Assembly (NCBI RefSeq): GCF_054482595.1
Contig: NZ_CM137008.1
Reading direction: 5' to 3' (one strand)
Length of the DNA stretch: 64,000 bases
The notes under the pieces were generated by a model. It was not told the origin of the DNA and did not search any database. It worked only from the letters and a program-made list of their open reading frames with translations. Every line of letters starts with the position of its first letter. The stretch's first letter is position 1. Both the position numbers and the translations under genes were made by a program. Of this stretch, positions 10,642-18,642 are shown one piece after another.

Positions 10642-10692
10642 ACTGTAGCAGTGTTGTATCTCGTATAAACAGGGAACTAAATATGCTGTTAA

Positions 10693-11574
10693 TCATGGGG
10701 CAGCATCATTAGGAGGGTATACATTGACCGATGTACTTACACGATGAAACTCTAGTATGTTGCCAGTATGGTGACCAGGGATAGCTTCAAACACCCCAAG
10801 AAATCGGTACAGTGTCCTGTTCAACTCATCACGAGAATGTGCCATAACAATTCGTTTATCCCAGCGTTCTGTGTATCCCTCATCATCCTTTATATTCCGC
10901 TCTATGATTTTGTTACCATCATCAGTCAATTCATTTCCCCAATCTGAATTTCCATATAGTTTTGGAAACCAAACCATGCATTTTCCTGATAGACCCATTG
11001 CTTCACTTATGTGAGAAGGAATGCTCCAACCGCCAGACTGATGATGTCCTTTGTTGTAACCGAAACAGTTCAAAGCATCCCGGTGGTATCTGAAGACGGC
11101 ATCTGGACCTACAGATATCCTTCCTGCCTTAAGATGAGGACGAGCTGTATATTTATTATCATAATCCCATTCTTTGAATTTTTTATCTTTAATCATTCTA
11201 TTTTTACGATTGCGTATCAACTCAATAAATTCATTGATATAACGATCGAAAATTTCAAGACTTATTTCGCTGGCGGGAATTCTTTTCTCTAAAAATCCTG
11301 TAACTTCAGTAATATCCATACGACGTTTCGCATCATCTATTTGTGATTGCTCACTGTTGTGATGCCCTTCATCAATTTCAAGATAAAGTTCCAGTTGTGG
11401 GAAAAATAAATCTGCCAAATAGATTTTTCCATTTTCTTTTCTGACACATTGCTGGCAGACAAATTCAATGTCGGGATCATTTAAAAGATGATAAATGCGA
11501 GTTACTGCATAATGTTCCCATCGTTTTTTTGAGGTTTTCGTAAGTGAACGTAGGATGTAATCAGTTTTATCCAT
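10693..11574 (-). CDS. Hypothetical protein, 293 aa, AT-rich, inside the satellite-like island
   Basis: Clean ORF; ELYLEIDEGHH and C-terminal KRIVMAH (Rx4H-like) motifs noted but no confident family assignment. Confidence 0.55.
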   Translation of the reverse strand: MDKTDYILRSLTKTSKKRWEHYAVTRIYHLLNDPDIEFVCQQCVRKENGKIYLADLFFPQLELYLEIDEGHHNSEQSQIDDAKRRMDITEVTGFLEKRIPASEISLEIFDRYINEFIELIRNRKNRMIKDKKFKEWDYDNKYTARPHLKAGRISVGPDAVFRYHRDALNCFGYNKGHHQSGGWSIPSHISEAMGLSGKCMVWFPKLYGNSDWGNELTDDGNKIIERNIKDDEGYTERWDKRIVMAHSRDELNRTLYRFLGVFEAIPGHHTGNILEFHRVSTSVNVYPPNDAAP

Positions 11575-11845
11575 TTATATGCCTTCCTTCTTTGTTCTTC
11601 ATGTAATGTGCTTTTTCTTATGGCGATAGTGTTACCTATCGCCATAAGATGCGTTAGTATTTTTTTAATCTAACTGTTTATACTGTTAACTTCGATGATT
11701 TTCTATTTTATATCATGTGGTTAAGCGGTGGTGAGTTGGTGAGGAGTGAAAAGTCGAATCTTCCCCTTTGTGATTTTTGCTCGTTCTGGATCTGCCCGGT
11801 CAGGCGATGTGGTGGGGGGGGGTAAAAAGTTTTTTTAGGTTTTAC

Positions 11846-11937
11846 TGTTCACACTGTTCACCTCTGGTTTTTTATTAATAATTTCATGGTGATACAGGGT
11901 GAAGATACGGTGAAGGGTGAACAGTGGATTGTTCACC
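11846..11937. repeat. Iteron cluster of TGTTCACC octamers in both orientations (P4 ori/crr-like alpha-binding repeats)
   Basis: Full octamers or close variants at 11846-11853, 11855-11862, 11916-11923 (GGTGAACA) and 11930-11937, plus partial GGTGAAG copies at about 11898 and 11909; the last two form a palindrome GGTGAACAgtggatTGTTCACC. Confidence 0.6.
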
Positions 11938-11989
11938 TTGTGGCAATGGCCAGAAAGGAAAAGACCGGCTGTTGCCGGTCTGAGTGAGG

Positions 11990-12565
11990 TTATGTTGCTA
12001 CGGGTTCGTCGCATTTCGGTAGCCAGTCGCCGTAGCTTTCCTCTTTCAGCGACAGATTGGTTTGTATCCCCTGCTTAGTGTGCCGCTTCTCATAATTCAG
12101 GCCGTACTCTTTCAGCATCATGGGCAGCCCCAGCCCGAACATTTTCAGGCTGAGTACGTTCCTATACCCGTTAGCCTCCATATAGGCCAGATACGCGTGA
12201 TAGAGATATTTACGATAATTACGCGGGATGATGCTGGCATTCCCCATAAACATCCCGTTGGTCTGCGGGAGCATTTCCAGATAGCCGCAAAAATCAAACG
12301 TAGGGTCAGCATCGCGCTTGATGCTGAGCGCCTCGTCGGAATTCTGCTGTGACTGGAGCAGTGCGCAGGCTGCCATCGGGTCGCTGAACTTCTGCATGAG
12401 CTGGCGCACAATCACGGCCAGCTCGCGCGCAATTTTATCCCTGAGCTGCGGGTCGCGTTCCTCCGGCGCAATTTGCTCCGGGAAGTGAATAATCACCCGG
12501 CGACGTGACACACCACCGCTGCGGTCGGTGAAGCGCATGGGGTTATTGTTCACTGCCAGAATCAC
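11990..12565 (-). pseudogene. Truncated primase/helicase (P4 alpha-like, D5/SF3 family) C-terminal remnant
   Basis: Frame stays open upstream to about 12670 without a start codon (…LKAITGGDAVSVDPKYQNPYSTHIPAVILAVNNNPMRFTDRSGGVSRRRVIIHF…); far shorter than an intact alpha (~770 aa). Confidence 0.5.
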
Positions 12566-12722
12566 CGCCGGAATGTGTGTTGAGTACGGGTTCTGGTATT
12601 TCGGGTCAACCGAGACCGCATCGCCGCCGGTGATGGCCTTAAGCCCTGCGCCGTCACCGCCGCCGCGTAAAGTACAGGGCTGCTACAGCTCGCCGTTCCG
12701 GCATTAATCAGGAGAGAGACTC

Positions 12723-13289
12723 GTGACCACTGTGACCATACAGCAGGCCTTTGAGGCCTGTCAGACGAACAAAAATACCTGGCTGAAACGTAAAGCCGAA
12801 CTGGCAGACCTTGAACGGGAATACCGTGAACAGCTCCTTGCCGGTGACGAACAAATCCCGCGCAGAATGCAGGATTTGCGCGACAATTTCGACGTGAAAA
12901 AATGGGAGATTAATCAGGCCGCCGGTCGTTATATCCGCTCACATGAGGAAGTGCAGCACATCAGCATCCGCAACCGGCTCCATGACTTTATGCAGTAGCA
13001 CGGCGCGGAGCTGGCCGCCACGCTGGCACCTGAGCTGATGGGGTATAACGAACAGCTTCCCGCAGTAAAACAGAGCGCCATGCAGCACTCGGTTGATTAT
13101 CTGCGTGAAGCCCTGTCGGTATGGCTGGCTGCAGGTGAAAAAATTAATTATTCCGCGCAGGACAGCGATATTTTAACGGCCATCGGATTCAGGCCTGATG
13201 CGGCCTCGCGGGATGATAATCGCCAGAAATTCACCCCGGCACAGAACCTGATTTACACCCGCCGACGTGCAGAACTGGCCGCACGGTAG
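12723..13289 (+). pseudogene. psu: psu-like (P4 polarity suppression protein) gene with one in-frame TAG at 12999..13001
   Basis: ORFs 12723..12998 and 13038..13289 are in the same frame separated by a single amber; N-terminus MTTVTIQQAFEACQTNKNTW resembles recalled P4 Psu; combined length 188 codons. Confidence 0.55.
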
Positions 13290-13690
13290 CACGCAAAAAA
13301 ATCCGCAAAATTCCGCTATTTTTTCCGAAAAAAGCCATGCATCCATAAGGTGCATGGTTTTTCATGCAAATCCCCGTATTTTATTTTCCTCACCGCGCCA
13401 GTACCGGCGCGGCCTGAGCCGGTTCATGCACCTGCATTAAAAGCGACCTCTTAAGCGGGCAGGCGTGGCGGGGAGAGCATTGCGCGCGGAGTGGGTGTTT
13501 TATTTTTTGTATGTCACATAAACTTAAGGTATGCAGTACGTAGCTAGTTTCACTAATACTGGGACGAAAAGAATGGTGCGTTTGTAAAAATGTATTTTAA
13601 TTTTTGGATTGTGATACAGAGTAAATTTCATTTAATTTTGTATTTTAATTGCGGTAAGCTATAACAAACTTGAAAAGGAATTATAATCAC

Positions 13691-15352
13691 ATGAGGTATG
13701 TTGAAAATATGAAAATTCTAGTAACTGCACCTTCAAGAAAAAATCACCCAAAAAATAATGTATTGTATGATTTTATATTGCAACAAGATGATTGGAATGA
13801 TTTTAGTTTTATCACTAAGTATCATTTATACATTACAACGAAACTTACTGGTCTTGATGAAATAGAGTATGCTGGGGTTGTTAAAATTATAAAAAAAGAT
13901 CAGTCTGAAGCTGATTACTACATGGTTGAAGAAGGCGAGTTTTCATATTTGAGTGACGAGTTTTGTTCTGTGGGACAATCTCTTGATTATTATGGGAGGC
14001 TCTCTGAATTGGGGAGTGAAATTTGTGAGGGGATATTGACATCATTACGCGACATTAATATGTTTGATTATGTTTCTGAGGGTTTCAAAAATGAAAGAGC
14101 TTGGGAACGTTCTATCATGAGAGACTTAAATAATGATGATGATATTTTTATTCTTCCAAAGTTTATAATAAAAAATCAGTTCTCGGCTATACCTAGTATA
14201 GACATGAAGTTTTCATTTATGTATTCAGGAATGATTAATACTCTTTCGTTTGATTTCGATTCAATACAATATGGATATTTTGAAAGTGAAAAACTACCAT
14301 GTAGAATGTCCGTAATTGTAGGCCGGAACGGTTGTGGGAAGAGTACAACATTGGCAAGACTTTCTAGGGTTGCTTATTCTTCAACTCAGGACAGAAAAAA
14401 AGAACAGATAGCCAAAATTGGTGAAATTCTTCCAGAGGGATTAGGTTTTCCGAAAATAATCAACCTTTCATACAGTGCTTTTGATAGTTTTCAAATACCC
14501 GGGTGTACTTTTAAAGAAAAGAAACAGCTAAGGCAAGACATACTTGATGGGAAAGGTAGGTATATATATTGCGGAGTCAGGGATGTTGGTGCTGAATTGG
14601 ATTATGTATTGGCTAATGTAGATGAAAACAATATGGATATAGAGTTTATTACATTAGATAGGCAAGAGAGAACCATATTAAAACCTCTTGAAGTACTTAG
14701 TGAAGAGTTTTATGGTGTCTTGATAAAAATACATAAAGATAGTGATAAGTGGAATTTGTTTAATAAAGTGATGATGAAGTTGAGAGAAGAGGTTTCATTA
14801 TCTGAAATTATTGATGAAATCTTTAAAGATGATTTTATTCTTAAATCTAAAGAATATTTTCATAGGTTGAGTACAGGGCATAAATTTGTTTTGCATTCGA
14901 TGGCGCATATTTTGTTGTATATTGAAAAAAGATGCCTTGTTTTATTTGATGAGCCTGAAACTCATTTGCACCCGCCATTGCTTGCGGTTTTAATGAGCGC
15001 TCTGAGAATTGTTTTGAACGAAGTCGATGCTTTTGCTATTGTTGCTACTCATTCACCTGTGGTAGTACAAGAAACATTAAGTAAAAATGTTAATGTTATA
15101 ACTAGAAATGGGGAGTTTACTGATTTTCAACGACCTGAAATTGAAACTTTTGGTGAGAATATTGGAGCAATAACATCATCAGTATTTTCATTAACGACTC
15201 AAATAACTGATTATCATGATGAATTAGACAAGCTAATAATAGAATATAAAAATAATAATAATCCATTAGATGACATTGAAAAATGTTTTGATACAGGTCT
15301 TAGTACACAAGCAAGGTCTTATGTAATATCTAAATTAGCGGTAAAAGGATAA
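13691..15352 (+). CDS. ABC-type (AAA_15/AAA_21-like, SMC/RecF/OLD superfamily) ATPase with ~190-aa N-terminal extension; PtuA-like candidate defence ATPase
   Basis: Walker A VGRNGCGKST, signature-like LSTGHK, Walker B LVLFDEPETHLHP, H-loop ATHSP. AAAGGAA SD before ATG 13691; alternative starts TTG 13670 and ATG 13709. Strongly AT-rich. Confidence 0.8.
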   Translation: MRYVENMKILVTAPSRKNHPKNNVLYDFILQQDDWNDFSFITKYHLYITTKLTGLDEIEYAGVVKIIKKDQSEADYYMVEEGEFSYLSDEFCSVGQSLDYYGRLSELGSEICEGILTSLRDINMFDYVSEGFKNERAWERSIMRDLNNDDDIFILPKFIIKNQFSAIPSIDMKFSFMYSGMINTLSFDFDSIQYGYFESEKLPCRMSVIVGRNGCGKSTTLARLSRVAYSSTQDRKKEQIAKIGEILPEGLGFPKIINLSYSAFDSFQIPGCTFKEKKQLRQDILDGKGRYIYCGVRDVGAELDYVLANVDENNMDIEFITLDRQERTILKPLEVLSEEFYGVLIKIHKDSDKWNLFNKVMMKLREEVSLSEIIDEIFKDDFILKSKEYFHRLSTGHKFVLHSMAHILLYIEKRCLVLFDEPETHLHPPLLAVLMSALRIVLNEVDAFAIVATHSPVVVQETLSKNVNVITRNGEFTDFQRPEIETFGENIGAITSSVFSLTTQITDYHDELDKLIIEYKNNNNPLDDIEKCFDTGLSTQARSYVISKLAVKG

Positions 15353-15357
15353 TACAT

Positions 15358-16203
15358 ATGTGGACACTACCTTTACCAGATGATGCGGATAGAATGAGCG
15401 AGTTATTAACCGCTTTAACGTATAAAAATGGAAATCCTAAGTATGCTTTAACACAAGATGAAAAGGATAAAATTGAAACTATTTATACTTTATATCACGA
15501 TCGTAAAGCAACTCCCTGTGCTGAATTTTTAGCAGAGGAAATAAGTGATGAAACCCAAAATGCTATAAAAACAGCTTATTCAGAAGTGCAAATAAATGGA
15601 CGGCTTTCAACCCTTCGCTCAAGGATTTTATTAAGTTCTAAAAAATGCCCATTATGTGGGATCGAATCATCAACCGACCTAGATCATTATCTTCCCGAAT
15701 CAATATATAAATGTCTCGCAGTATATTCAAGAAACCTGATACCGACCTGTCATAAGTGCAATAATAAAAAAAGAGCTGGTGTAGCAGAAAATGGAGTTGG
15801 ATTTATTCATGTGTATTATTTTGATGAGCCCGATGGTGTATTTTTCGTTGCCAATACTGAAATGATAGATGGTGCTTTAGTAATTGATTTTAATATCAAT
15901 ATGATCGAGGGTATGACTCGAGAGGTATATGATTCATTATGCTTTCAAAATAGAGTTGTTAACCTAAATGAAAGGTTAAAGATGGAAGCGAATGATTTTT
16001 TAGGGGGGCTCTATACTTCACTTGAAGAAACATATAATTCTGCAGGCCAAGAAGGATTAAGATTATTTCTAAAAAGAACTAGGGATGACTATACCAGACG
16101 TTATGGGCTTAATCATTGGAGAAGAGCATTGATAGATAGTCTATCCGATAATGTGGAGTTCCTTGACGCTGGTTTTATTACTGCCTTAGGAACTCCAGAG
16201 TGA
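15358..16203 (+). CDS. HNH endonuclease-fold protein, 281 aa; PtuB-like candidate defence nuclease
   Basis: HNH motif KKCPLCG…DLDHYLPES…N…CHKCNNKK; starts 5 nt after the ATPase stop with AAAGGA SD (translational coupling); ends 2 nt before the convergent integrase. Confidence 0.8.
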   Translation: MWTLPLPDDADRMSELLTALTYKNGNPKYALTQDEKDKIETIYTLYHDRKATPCAEFLAEEISDETQNAIKTAYSEVQINGRLSTLRSRILLSSKKCPLCGIESSTDLDHYLPESIYKCLAVYSRNLIPTCHKCNNKKRAGVAENGVGFIHVYYFDEPDGVFFVANTEMIDGALVIDFNINMIEGMTREVYDSLCFQNRVVNLNERLKMEANDFLGGLYTSLEETYNSAGQEGLRLFLKRTRDDYTRRYGLNHWRRALIDSLSDNVEFLDAGFITALGTPE

Positions 16204-16205
16204 GT

Positions 16206-17399
16206 TTACTGGTGGGGATGAATATGTCGTCCCCACCAATTCATCAATTCAATTCTTGCGTGTAAATATGTTGAGCGATTGTAGGCTTTTCGTACTTCAT
16301 TTCTATCTGAATGAGCAAGAGCAGCCTCAATTACATCAGCATTAAAACCGGCTTCATTCATTGCCGTACTTGCAATCGAACGTAAACCATGTGCAACCAA
16401 TTTCCCACCATAACCTATTCGCTTAAGTGCAGCATTGGCAGTTTGGCTATTCATAGGTTGTTTTGGATTATTTCTGCTGGGAAAAACATGTTCTCGATGT
16501 GCACTAATAGGTTTCATCACATCCAGAATTTCTAATGCTTGTGGTGATAAAGGAACAATGTGTTCACGCTTAGCCTTCATTCGTTCGGCGGGAATCGTCC
16601 AGAGTTTGGCATTGAGATCGATCTCTACCCACCGAGCACCAGAAGCCTCAGAAGGGCGCACTAGGGTCAGAAGCTGCCATTCAATAAGACAGCGAGTCGG
16701 AACAGACAGATTCGACATGACCAGGGAACGCATAAGCTTAGGTAATTCTTCTGGCCGTAGCGTGGGCATATTTTGCTTTTTGGGTTTCTCAAAAGCCATT
16801 CCTACACCCGAAGCCGGGTTGGCATCTATCAGACCGGTATTAACCGCATAAATCATTATTTCGTTAATACGCTGAACTAGGCGACGAACCGTCTCTAATG
16901 CGCCACGTGCTTTGATTGGCTCCAATGCTTCAACAATCGTTCTGGCCTTTATATCCTGAACGGGCATCGCACCGATTGCCGGGAACACGTCTTTATCCAA
17001 AGAACGCCAAATATCCTTTGCATAATCCTCTGTGACACTTCTGCTTTTAATCTGGAACCAGTTAGCGGCCACAGTTGAGAAAATGCTGTCTAACTCAATC
17101 TGGCGTTGTGCTGACGCTTGCTCCTGTTGCTGTTGTGGATCCATGCCTTGCGCGAGCGTGGTTAAGTGCTGGTCGCGTATCTGACGAGCTGCTGCGAGTG
17201 TAAGGGCAGGGTATGAGCCGAGACTCAAATTTGTGCGGCTGCTGCTTCCCGGTCGTTGATAACGGAAGCGTCAGAGTTTTTTACCGGAGGTTTTGACGAG
17301 TAAGAACAGGCCATCACCATCATGCAGGGTGAAGTCTTTTTCGCGGGGTTTCGCTTTGAGGATTTCGTTGTTAGTGAGGGGGCGTGTAATGCGCGCCAT
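16206..17399 (-). pseudogene. intA: P4-family tyrosine integrase (intA-like) interrupted by an in-frame TGA after codon 42
   Basis: N-terminus MARITRPLTNNEILKAKPREKDFTLHDGDGLFLLVKTSGKKL, then TGA (complement 17271..17273), then the same frame continues RFRYQRPGSSSRTNLSLGSYPALT… into the 340-aa ORF. Confidence 0.8.
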
Positions 17400-17449
17400 G
17401 TCTGGATCCCTTCCATAATTGGTACACGTTTAATGGACCACAGTATAGC

Positions 17450-17477
17450 GTGTACCTAAACGTGTACCAATTTTCTC
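17450..17477. repeat. 28-bp direct repeat, right copy (between integrase and ssrA)
   Basis: Identical to 10614..10641. Confidence 0.8.
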
Positions 17478-17513
17478 TGGATTTAGCCGGATGTTCTCGG
17501 ACAACGACAGACA

Positions 17514-17549
17514 CAAAAAAGCCCGCAGGGCTTGTGCCGTGCGGGCTTT
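17514..17549 (-). terminator. Rho-independent terminator downstream of ssrA
   Basis: Minus-strand GCCCGC…GCGGGC stem followed by TTTTTT. Confidence 0.7.
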
Positions 17550-17582
17550 CTGTACTTCACCGGACGTATCCGGATCATCATT

Positions 17583-17945
17583 TGGTGGAGCTGGCGGGAG
17601 TTGAACCCGCGTCCGAAATTCCTACGTCCTCGGTACTACATGCTTAGTCAGTCTTTACATTCGCTTGCCAGCTGCGGACGGACACGCCACTAACAAACTA
17701 GCCTGATTAAGTTTTAACGCTTCAACCCCAGGCAGGGCCTCCACGCGATCTCTTTTGGGTTTGACCTCTCTTGATCCCCGTCCTAAGAGCGGAGGCTAGG
17801 GAGAGAGGGCTCTAAGCAGGTTATTAAGCTGCTAAAGCGTAGTTTTCGTCGTTTGCGACTATTTTTTGCGGCTTTTTACGAGGCCAACCGCCCCTCGGCA
17901 TGCACCTTGGGTTTCGCAAATCCCGTCGAATCCAGAATCAGCCCC
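17583..17945 (-). ncRNA. ssrA: tmRNA (SsrA), 363 nt
   Basis: Reverse complement begins GGGGCTGATTCTGGATTCGACGGG and ends …GGTTCAACTCCCGCCAGCTCCACCA, with the tag-coding region between. Confidence 0.95.
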
Positions 17946-18159
17946 AATGTGTAAAGGTAAGTATACCAGATTTATGAGCGCCATGACCAGCCTCAATGGC
18001 GTTATCGTTAAAGATTTAGCGACCATGTAGCCTGATTTTTATTCGATTTAGCAATGGGATGGCAACATTTTCGTCGGATGTGATAGCCAATAAGATGTTC
18101 ATTCGCGCCGCCGGAGAGGGAGGCGCGGTGAGGAACTGGTCAATAATTGGAGTGCAGGT

Positions 18160-18642
18160 TTAACGGTGAGCGTTTTTCATGATACGCGCTTTATCCACCT
18201 GCCATTCGCGTTCTTTGATATCTGAACGTTTATCGTGCTGTTTCTTACCTTTGGCGACGCCGATTTTCACTTTGCACCAGGCATTTTTCCAGTACAGGGA
18301 GAGCGCCACTACGGTATAGCCTTCTCGATTGACGCGACCGTACAATGAGTCCAGTTCGCGCTGGTTGAGAAGTAACTTGCGGGTACGGGTAGGATCGCAC
18401 ACCACATGCGTGGAGGCCACGGCCATTGGCGTGATGTTAGCGCCAAACAGAAATGCCTCTCCGTCACGCAGAAGGACGTAGCTGTCGCTGATATTGGCTT
18501 TTCCTGCGCGCAGGGATTTAACCTCCCAGCCTTGCAGGGCAAGTCCCGCTTCGAACTCTTCTTCGATAAAGTATTCGTGACGGGCGCGCTTGTTAAGCGC
18601 GATGGTCGCTGAACCAGGTTTATGTGCTTTTTTCTTCGTCAT
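18160..18642 (-). CDS. smpB: SsrA-binding protein SmpB
   Basis: 160-aa product [29 protein letters not shown]…; adjacent to ssrA. Confidence 0.95.

What the first reader, a model, noticed from the sequence alone, without database searches (positions are those of the whole stretch)
13670..16203. AT-rich two-gene ATPase + HNH nuclease cassette in the satellite cargo position: candidate anti-phage system (Septu-like architecture)
Seen directly: a 553-560 aa protein with a complete ABC-type ATPase motif set (Walker A VGRNGCGKST, LSTGHK signature, Walker B LVLFDEPETHLHP, H-loop ATHSP), followed 5 nt later by a 281-aa protein with a canonical HNH/zinc-finger motif (CPLCG…DHYLPES…CHKCNNKK), with SD-linked starts. 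The pair is markedly more AT-rich than the flanking DNA and sits between a P4-type integrase and a psu-like gene. From established knowledge: the int-psu interval of P4-like satellites is a known hotspot for defence cargo, and ATPase+HNH pairs define Septu (PtuA/PtuB). Inference: this is a defence system. It may be a divergent Septu or a new ATPase-nuclease family; I cannot tell which without a search.
Basis: partly seen in the sequence, partly recalled or inferred. Interest (0 to 1): 0.9.

Follow-up and report, generated by a model that had tools for sequence, protein, structure and literature searches.

The report
Known Septu defence pair in P4 remnant
This is a real ATPase-plus-HNH-nuclease anti-phage cassette of the known Septu (PtuA/PtuB) kind, and these exact two proteins at this exact satellite position were already listed as Septu in a 2022 paper, so it is ordinary rather than new.

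Summary
Two co-oriented ORFs (13709/13691..15352 and 15358..16203, + strand) encode an ABC-type ATPase and an HNH nuclease. They are 5 nt apart, and their GC is 30-35% against about 50% in the flanks. They lie between a psu pseudogene with a cos-like site and a P4-type integrase pseudogene next to ssrA.

Rousset et al. 2022 (PMC9122126) list these same proteins, WP_021557103 and WP_021557102, in the E. coli P4 hotspot. Their Table S1B carries both protein sequences as system 17, with 80 occurrences, annotated 'Septu (Doron et al., 2018)'.

One open point remains. This clade differs from the tested E. coli Septu systems: PtuA has an extra conserved N-terminal domain of about 165 aa, and the PtuB catalytic His is at 110 rather than 75. 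I found no phage test of it, so its trigger and substrate are inferred only.

Novelty: already known. Interest is low.

The parts
13709..15352 (+). ptuA-like gene: ABC/SMC-type ATPase (AAA_15/AAA_21) with a clade-specific N-terminal domain of about 165 aa. Alternative starts are 13691 (RefSeq WP_021557103, 553 aa) and 13670 (TTG, 560 aa).
   Evidence: ORF. PADLOC PDC-M01A 1.3e-99 and PtuA1 PDLC00282 1.3e-73, both full length. Pfam AAA_21 and AAA_15 match the C-terminal part. Invariant Walker A, signature, Walker B and H-loop residues. All 50 top Foldseek PDB hits are PtuA chains.
15358..16203 (+). ptuB-like gene: HNH (H-N-N variant) zinc-finger nuclease with a helical C-terminal domain (WP_021557102).
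13462..13480 (+). cos-like site of the P4-like satellite, marking the psu-side border of the cargo hotspot.
   Evidence: 16 of 19 match to GGCGAGGCGGGGAAAGCAC (sequence recalled from memory). It is the single match in the window, with 0.02 expected by chance.
12723..13289 (+). psu (polarity suppression protein) pseudogene.
   Evidence: In-frame stop at codon 92. RefSeq annotates it as 'phage polarity suppression protein, internal stop'.
11990..12658 (-). C-terminal fragment of the P4 alpha primase plus the crr region; the rest of the satellite is deleted.
   Evidence: 84.5% DNA identity to P4 alpha/crr over window 11900-12660. TIGR01613 primase_Cterm partial match. RefSeq annotates it as incomplete, missing the N-terminus.
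16206..17399 (-). P4/CP4-57-type tyrosine integrase pseudogene, convergent with ptuB (2 nt between the stop codons).
   Evidence: NF007246 8.8e-149 over profile positions 59-392 of 413. RefSeq annotates an 'internal stop'. The intact ORF runs only 16206..17228.
17583..17945 (-). ssrA (tmRNA), next to the integrase and the likely attachment site of the island.
   Evidence: ARAGORN. Rfam RF00023, 292 bits.

Best explanation
The cassette is a stand-alone (type I, retron-less) Septu anti-phage system. It sits as cargo in the psu-cos-int hotspot of a decayed, immobilised P4-like satellite next to ssrA in E. coli.

Shown here: PtuA is an ABC/SMC-type ATPase with a complete catalytic motif set. PtuB is a ββα-metal HNH nuclease with an intact zinc finger and active site. 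The two genes are closely spaced, with an SD-like sequence overlapping the end of ptuA, which suggests translational coupling. They travel together across phyla and lie in mobile elements or defence islands.

Inferred from studied Septu and retron PtuAB systems: PtuA oligomerises and holds PtuB in an inactive complex. ATP binding restrains the nuclease. Phage infection releases or activates PtuB. [quoted passage not shown] This stops phage replication at the cost of host growth (abortive infection).

Specific to this clade and uncharacterised: a conserved N-terminal domain of about 165 aa on PtuA, which I suggest acts as a sensing or substrate-recognition module.
For: Family assignment of the ATPase:
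- PADLOC PtuA1 PDLC00282, E = 1.3e-73, covering residues 26-551 of the protein and 11-507 of the 520-position profile; PDC-M01A 1.3e-99.
- PADLOC assigns the same proteins to both PDC-M01 and Septu in other genomes (PMC11811056).
- A profile of 41 homologues hits PDB PtuA sequences 22bu, 22et, 9kjx and 8ee4 at 3e-10 to 4e-6.
- The 50 best Foldseek PDB matches of the AF2 model are all PtuA chains.

Family assignment of the nuclease:

Catalytic residues are invariant in both proteins.

Linkage of the two genes:
- In Yersinia the pair sits next to an integrase of another satellite-like element (PtuB 64% identical).
- In a Sphingobacteriaceae genome it sits beside BamHI-type R-M genes, a KAP NTPase and PemK (PtuB 44% identical).

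Prior literature:
- Rousset et al. 2022, Table S1A lists WP_021557103 + WP_021557102 in P4 hotspots. Table S1B, system 17, 80 occurrences, carries both protein sequences and is annotated 'Septu (Doron et al., 2018)'.
- Mechanism of relatives: a 6:2 PtuA-PtuB complex, ATP inhibition, and plasmid nicking, ssDNA cleavage or tRNA-Tyr cleavage (PMC12640716). Walker A/B and HNH residues are needed for defence, the phenotype is abortive-infection-like, and tRNA-Tyr is cut at the variable loop (PMC13096335).

No reverse transcriptase ORF and no RNA family other than tmRNA lie nearby, so it is not a retron-coupled type.
Against: - I found no phage-challenge data for this protein pair or its clade. No paper holds either accession, and neither accession appears outside the Table S1 file among the Rousset supplementary files held as text, some of which were cut when stored.
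- It is distant from every characterised Septu. Identity to solved PtuA and PtuB is 10-18% in the fold alignments.
- A PtuB profile finds no PDB sequence.
- Whole-chain TM-scores for PtuA are only 0.25-0.33.
- The NCBIfam PtuA equivalog scores 40 bits against a cut-off of 500.
- The tested E. coli Septu systems have the Walker A lysine at 43 and the HNH histidine at 75. Here they are at 211 and 110, so trigger, stoichiometry and substrate may differ.
- No consensus promoter or terminator stands out above chance, so expression in this decayed element is unproven.
Confidence: 0.88

Rival explanations
1. It belongs to a separate ATPase + HNH defence family (PADLOC candidate 'PDC-M01') that only resembles Septu in architecture and has its own trigger and target.
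For: - The best PADLOC hits are PDC-M01A and PDC-M01B (1e-99 and 3e-37). For PtuB these are far stronger than the PtuB1 model, which scores 1.8e-8 over the HNH region only.
- PtuA carries an N-terminal domain of about 165 aa that all seven sampled carriers share with PDC-M01A-type ATPases.
- There is no sequence-level PDB match for PtuB.
Against: - The PtuA1 model PDLC00282 covers the whole protein, including the N-terminal domain, at 1e-73. This clade was therefore already inside PADLOC's Septu PtuA set.
- PADLOC assigns the same loci to both PDC-M01 and Septu.
- Fold searches put both proteins closest to PtuA and PtuB, and the PtuB similarity extends well beyond the HNH core.
- Rousset et al. 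call it Septu.
- The distinction is therefore one of subtype rather than kind.
Confidence: 0.08
2. It is a restriction-type (type IV or McrBC-like) or OLD/PARIS/Gabija-type ATPase-nuclease module rather than Septu.
For: - TIGR04435 'restriction system-associated AAA family ATPase' matches residues 394-539 (5.7e-22).
- There are weak AriA/AriAB and ATPase-Toprim hits (about 1e-12 to 1e-14).
- An AbaSI-family restriction gene lies 2 kb away.
- One relative (P0283) is fused to a REase_II-like domain.
Against: - TIGR04435 scores 78 bits against a cut-off of 300, and only on the shared C-terminal ABC lobe.
- The partner protein has an HNH domain, not a TOPRIM or DUF4435 domain.
- All AriA and OLD hits cover only the generic ATPase C-terminus.
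- No methyltransferase gene is adjacent.
Confidence: 0.02
3. It is a selfish or non-defence module, for example an HNH homing or mobility nuclease with an unrelated ABC ATPase, or an inactive relic in a decaying satellite.
For: - The surrounding satellite is degraded: psu and int are pseudogenes and the primase is truncated.
- No promoter stands out.
Against: - Both ORFs are intact, and the cassette is 99.9-100% identical in 15 complete E. coli genomes.
- All catalytic residues are invariant.
- The pair is conserved as neighbours across phyla in defence-rich contexts.
Confidence: 0.02

Closest known systems
Septu system #17 of the E. coli P4-like satellite hotspot (Rousset et al. 2022, Cell Host Microbe, PMC9122126, Tables S1A/S1B)
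   Same: The proteins are the same (WP_021557103 + WP_021557102, both sequences given in Table S1B). The position is the same, the psu-int hotspot of P4-like satellites. It is annotated 'Septu (Doron et al., 2018)' with 80 occurrences.
   Different: The system itself does not differ. In this window the carrier satellite is a decayed remnant. I found no sign that the paper tested this system experimentally.
E. coli Septu PtuAB (Li et al. 2024, PDB 8EE4/8EE7/8EEA/8SUX) and Septu EcB88 (PMC13096335)
   Different: Identity is only 10-14%. This PtuA has an extra conserved N-terminal domain of about 165 aa (Walker A lysine at 211 versus 43) and is 547 aa versus 465. This PtuB is 281 aa versus 234, with its catalytic His at 110 versus 75. 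The substrate (DNA nicking or tRNA-Tyr) is unknown for this clade.
Retron type I-A effectors PtuAB (Retron-Eco7/Ec78, Retron-Eco4/Ec83; 'type II Septu')
   Same: These are the best sequence and fold matches in the PDB for both proteins, with the same ATPase-HNH effector logic.
   Different: There is no reverse transcriptase or msr-msd ncRNA here. The NCBIfam retron PtuA equivalog scores 40 bits against a cut-off of 500. Here the nuclease cannot be held in check by msDNA.
PADLOC candidate system PDC-M01
   Same: These are the best-scoring PADLOC models for both proteins, over their full length.
   Different: PDC-M01 is an unpublished, unvalidated candidate label that overlaps Septu calls on the same proteins. 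It adds no mechanism.

Membership tests
Septu (PtuA/PtuB) | PtuA: ABC/SMC-type (AAA_15/AAA_21) ATPase with intact Walker A, signature, Walker B and H-loop | tested here: met
   Pfam AAA_21 2.5e-7 and AAA_15 8.5e-6. The motifs are invariant in 41 homologues.
Septu (PtuA/PtuB) | PtuA matches a Septu PtuA profile over its full length | tested here: met
   PADLOC PtuA1 PDLC00282, E = 1.3e-73, residues 26-551 against profile positions 11-507 of 520. A profile of homologues hits PDB PtuA sequences. The top 50 Foldseek PDB hits are all PtuA chains.
Septu (PtuA/PtuB) | PtuB: HNH nuclease homologous to PtuB beyond the HNH core | tested here: met
Septu (PtuA/PtuB) | Adjacent co-oriented ptuA-ptuB operon, conserved as a pair | tested here: met
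   A 5-nt gap with an SD-like sequence overlapping the end of ptuA. The pair is conserved in Yersinia and Sphingobacteriaceae loci.
Septu (PtuA/PtuB) | PtuA-PtuB oligomeric complex with an ATP-restrained nuclease | not testable with these tools
   This is known for E. coli Septu from the literature. No complex prediction or biochemistry is available here.
Septu (PtuA/PtuB) | Confers phage resistance that depends on both active sites | not testable with these tools
   I found no published test of this pair. The validated E. coli Septu systems are of a different, shorter subtype.
Retron-coupled Septu (type II; retron I-A PtuAB) | Adjacent reverse transcriptase and msr-msd ncRNA; PtuA reaches the NF041760 equivalog cut-off | tested here: not met
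   There is no RT ORF and no Rfam RNA other than tmRNA. NF041760 scores 40.3 bits against a cut-off of 500.
PARIS / Gabija / OLD-type ATPase-nuclease systems | The partner or fused nuclease is TOPRIM/DUF4435 | tested here: not met
   The partner is an HNH protein. AriA and OLD hits are weak and limited to the C-terminal ATPase lobe.
P4-like satellite defence hotspot (psu-cos-cargo-int) | The cargo lies between psu/cos and the integrase of a P4-like element | tested here: met
   psu pseudogene, cos-like site, P4-type integrase, and a P4 alpha/crr remnant 84.5% identical to P4. The same proteins are listed in this hotspot by Rousset et al..

The most novel reading that the evidence does not exclude
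The conserved N-terminal domain of about 165 aa on this PtuA may be an uncharacterised sensor or substrate-recognition module. If so, this Septu subtype would have a different trigger or target from the studied short-PtuA and retron-coupled systems. The domain matches 722 cluster representatives at E <= 0.001, and all seven sampled carriers are PDC-M01A/PtuA1-type ATPases. The Walker A positions (K43 in Septu EcB88, and residue ~95 in retron-type PtuA) leave no room for it in the characterised PtuAs.
Probability: 0.3. Interest if true: 0.4.

Novelty: already known. Interest (0 to 1): 0.15.

Why it matters
It adds little beyond confirmation. It is a clean example of a P4-like satellite hotspot carrying a Septu system, and of a defence cassette that stays intact while its carrier satellite decays (psu, int and the primase are all broken). 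That pattern fits domestication of the cargo.

The one useful lead is that this Septu subtype, with its long N-terminal PtuA domain and long PtuB, seems never to have been tested. Septu substrate choice (DNA or tRNA-Tyr) and its trigger remain unsettled across homologues. A phage panel plus tRNA and DNA cleavage assays on this subtype would help map how PtuAB specificity varies.

Tried and rejected
- PDB sequence search. Single-sequence phmmer of PtuA found only weak C-terminal matches. PtuB found nothing as a single sequence or as a profile. Fold comparison was needed to settle PtuB.
- Pfam on PtuB gave only sub-threshold HNH hits (E = 0.026), and NCBIfam gave nothing for PtuB.
- The promoter and terminator scan gave 13 promoter-like sites against 13.2 expected, none on the + strand upstream of ptuA, and 0 terminators. 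It is uninformative. By eye there is a weak TTGTAT-16 nt-TATAAC at 13638-13665, but I do not rely on it.
- An Rfam scan of 10000-18500 looked for a retron or other ncRNA and found only tmRNA.
- The Li et al. 2024 Septu structure paper (PMC12318543) is not held. Its findings are cited second-hand from PMC12640716.
- I looked for experimental tests of this exact pair. There is no paper with either accession. Wang et al.'s E. coli Septu (preprint 10.1101/2022.06.16.496414) and Septu EcB88 have PtuB H75 (EcB88 also PtuA K43), so they are a different subtype.
- Rejected readings: type IV restriction, PARIS/Gabija/OLD, retron-coupled Septu, and a homing HNH nuclease. See the rival explanations and the membership test.
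Full report
**Observation**

The ORF list shows two co-oriented + strand ORFs at the stated coordinates.
- The first runs 13670..15352. It is 560 aa from a TTG, 553 aa from the ATG at 13691 (the start RefSeq uses for WP_021557103), and 547 aa from the ATG at 13709, which fits the 546-548 aa closest homologues.
- The second runs 15358..16203 (281 aa, WP_021557102).
- The gap is 5 nt. The end of the first gene (AAAGGA, then TAA) supplies an SD-like AAGGA 7 nt before the second ATG, which suggests translational coupling.
- GC falls to 0.30-0.36 over 13500-16250. It is 0.54-0.59 just upstream and about 0.50 downstream.

- ATPase, 41 sequences, 547-aa numbering: Walker A G205/N207/G208/G210/K211, signature STGHK 388-392, Walker B DEPE 414-417, H-loop H448.
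- Nuclease, 36 sequences: C97-P-x-C100, D109-H110, N126, C131-H-x-C134-N135-x-x-K138.

**Context**

The cassette lies in the remnant of a P4-like satellite next to ssrA.
- Upstream is psu (12723..13289) with an in-frame stop at codon 92.
- A 19-mer at 13462-13480 matches 16 of 19 bases of the P2/P4 cos sequence. I recalled that sequence from memory. It is the only match in the window, with 0.02 expected by chance.
- Window 11900-12660 is 84.5% identical to the 3' end of P4 alpha plus crr. Only the C-terminal primase fragment survives.
- Downstream, convergent with the HNH gene, is a P4/CP4-57-type integrase (NF007246, 8.8e-149). RefSeq annotates it with an internal stop.
- Beyond that lie tmRNA at 17583-17945 and smpB, recognised from the 160-aa ORF at 18160..18642.

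The layout is therefore psu-cos-[cargo]-int, which is the hotspot described for P4-like satellites. The satellite itself is broken and presumably immobile, while the cargo is intact. Fifteen of 5,426 complete E. coli genomes carry the cassette at 99.9-100% identity, always on the chromosome.

**What the proteins are**

The ATPase:
- In PADLOC-DB it matches PDC-M01A (1.3e-99) and the Septu model PtuA1 PDLC00282 (1.3e-73), both over essentially its whole length.
- Pfam sees AAA_21 and AAA_15 well only in the C-terminal lobe.
- NCBIfam's retron-type PtuA equivalog is far below its cut-off (40 bits against 500), as is TIGR04435 (78 against 300).
- A profile of 41 homologues finds PtuA sequences in the PDB: 22bu, 22et, 9kjx and 8ee4, at 3e-10 to 4e-6.
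- The AlphaFold model (pLDDT 88.9) has PtuA chains as all 50 best Foldseek matches in the PDB: Retron Ec78/Eco7/Ec83, and E. coli Septu 8EEA/8EE4/8SUX. E-values run from 7e-10, with probability 1.00.
- Whole-chain TM-scores are low (0.25-0.33). My guess, not examined, is that the extra N-terminal domain and mobile helical insertions account for this.

The nuclease:
- It matches PDC-M01B (2.6e-37). Its match to PtuB1 is weak, 1.8e-8 over the HNH region only.
- Pfam scores HNH at E = 0.026.
- It has no PDB sequence match.
- Its model is very confident (pLDDT 94.5).

PADLOC's PDC-M01 is an unpublished candidate label. Others have found it assigned to the same proteins as Septu (PMC11811056).

**Gene linkage**

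The A and B homologue lists share contigs, and two loci were read.
- In Yersinia enterocolitica the pair (PtuB 64% identical) sits against an integrase beside another satellite-like element carrying AlpA, Ash and primase genes.
- In a Sphingobacteriaceae genome the pair (PtuB 44% identical) sits in a defence island with a BamHI-type R-M system, a KAP NTPase and PemK.

**Prior knowledge**

Rousset et al. 2022 (PMC9122126) catalogued the P4 hotspot in E. coli.
- Table S1A lists 'AAA_15/AAA_21 + hypothetical: WP_021557103 + WP_021557102' in many genomes.
- Table S1B gives system 17, 'AAA_15/AAA_21 | HNH_4', with 80 occurrences and both protein sequences, annotated 'Septu (Doron et al., 2018)'.
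- The main text names Septu among the known systems in the hotspot.

The finding is thus already in the literature, at the level of these very proteins and this very position.

**Mechanism**

Shown here:
- Both catalytic centres are intact.
- The operon structure is conserved.
- The homology is to PtuA and PtuB.
- No reverse transcriptase or retron ncRNA is present.

Inferred from relatives:
- E. coli Septu forms a 6:2 PtuA-PtuB complex.
- ATP inhibits its nuclease.
- Stand-alone Septu nicks plasmid DNA, Retron-Eco4 PtuAB cuts ssDNA, and Retron-Eco7 PtuAB depletes tRNA-Tyr (PMC12640716).

By analogy, I expect PtuA here to hold PtuB inactive until infection, and PtuB then to cleave nucleic acid and stop phage growth. 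The substrate and trigger for this clade are unknown.

**Differences from studied Septu**

- The validated E. coli systems have the PtuA Walker A lysine at 43 and the PtuB catalytic His at 75. Here they are at 211 and 110.
- The first 165 or so residues of this PtuA form a conserved, β-rich extra domain. Its invariant residues include W29, D31, T36, S87, L92, D93, Y95 and R97.
- A search of 1.84 billion cluster representatives with this domain alone found 722 proteins at E <= 0.001.
- All seven that I sampled are PDC-M01A/PtuA1-PDLC00282-type ATPases. One of them is a 1,049-aa fusion to a REase_II-like domain.
- The domain therefore marks a Septu subtype rather than a new family.
- I found no paper testing this subtype.

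**Rivals**

- A distinct 'PDC-M01' family: this amounts to a subtype label.
- Type IV restriction, PARIS, Gabija or OLD: the partner is an HNH protein, not TOPRIM/DUF4435, and those hits cover only the generic ATPase lobe.
- Retron-coupled Septu: there is no RT or ncRNA.
- A homing nuclease or dead relic: both ORFs are intact, the catalytic residues are invariant and the pairing is conserved.

**Verdict**

It is already known. Interest is low (0.15). The only open lead is the untested long-PtuA subtype and the role of its N-terminal domain.

Noticed in passing
window 10693-11574 (- strand): An intact AT-rich gene (GC about 0.35-0.40) for an AbaSI-family modification-dependent restriction endonuclease (PADLOC mREase_II, 1.5e-121; RefSeq 'AbaSI family restriction endonuclease'). 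It lies just beyond the truncated P4 primase. It is a second defence gene in the same island, outside the canonical psu-int hotspot.
   Followed up: partly
window 11990-17399: The carrier P4-like satellite is decayed. psu has a nonsense codon at position 92, the integrase has an internal stop, and only the C-terminal part of the alpha primase plus crr remains. sid, delta and the immunity region are absent. The Septu cassette is intact and identical in 15 complete genomes. This looks like domestication of the cargo after loss of mobility.
   Followed up: partly
L001 13340-16678 (E. coli XH990, NZ_CP019359.1): In strain XH990 the same P4 remnant and Septu cassette are followed by an RloB-family protein + AAA ATPase pair and a second site-specific integrase with prophage genes. 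In the window, tmRNA and smpB follow directly. XH990 appears to have a tandem insertion at the same site, carrying another defence-like ATPase pair.
   Followed up: no
protein P0283 (1049 aa): A relative of this PtuA, including the N-terminal domain (PDC-M01A 2.7e-158 over residues 13-539), is fused to a C-terminal region with a REase_II-like match (residues 825-920, 6.6e-12). In this protein the ATPase is joined directly to a different nuclease type.
   Followed up: no
L002 813-9696 (Yersinia enterocolitica) and L003 1348-9259 (Sphingobacteriaceae): Homologous ptuA-ptuB pairs sit in other mobile or defence contexts. In Yersinia they lie between two integrases, next to AlpA/Ash/primase genes of a satellite-like element and an AbiEii gene. 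In Sphingobacteriaceae they lie next to a BamHI-like R-M system, a KAP NTPase and a PemK toxin.
   Followed up: partly
window 5679-10382 (+ strand): A large YpjA/EhaD-type autotransporter adhesin gene (1567-aa ORF from GTG; RefSeq start equivalent to window 5808) bounds the island on the far side. A Pro-Asp-Lys-rich PNPDPKPD repeat linker precedes the β-barrel domain.
   Followed up: no
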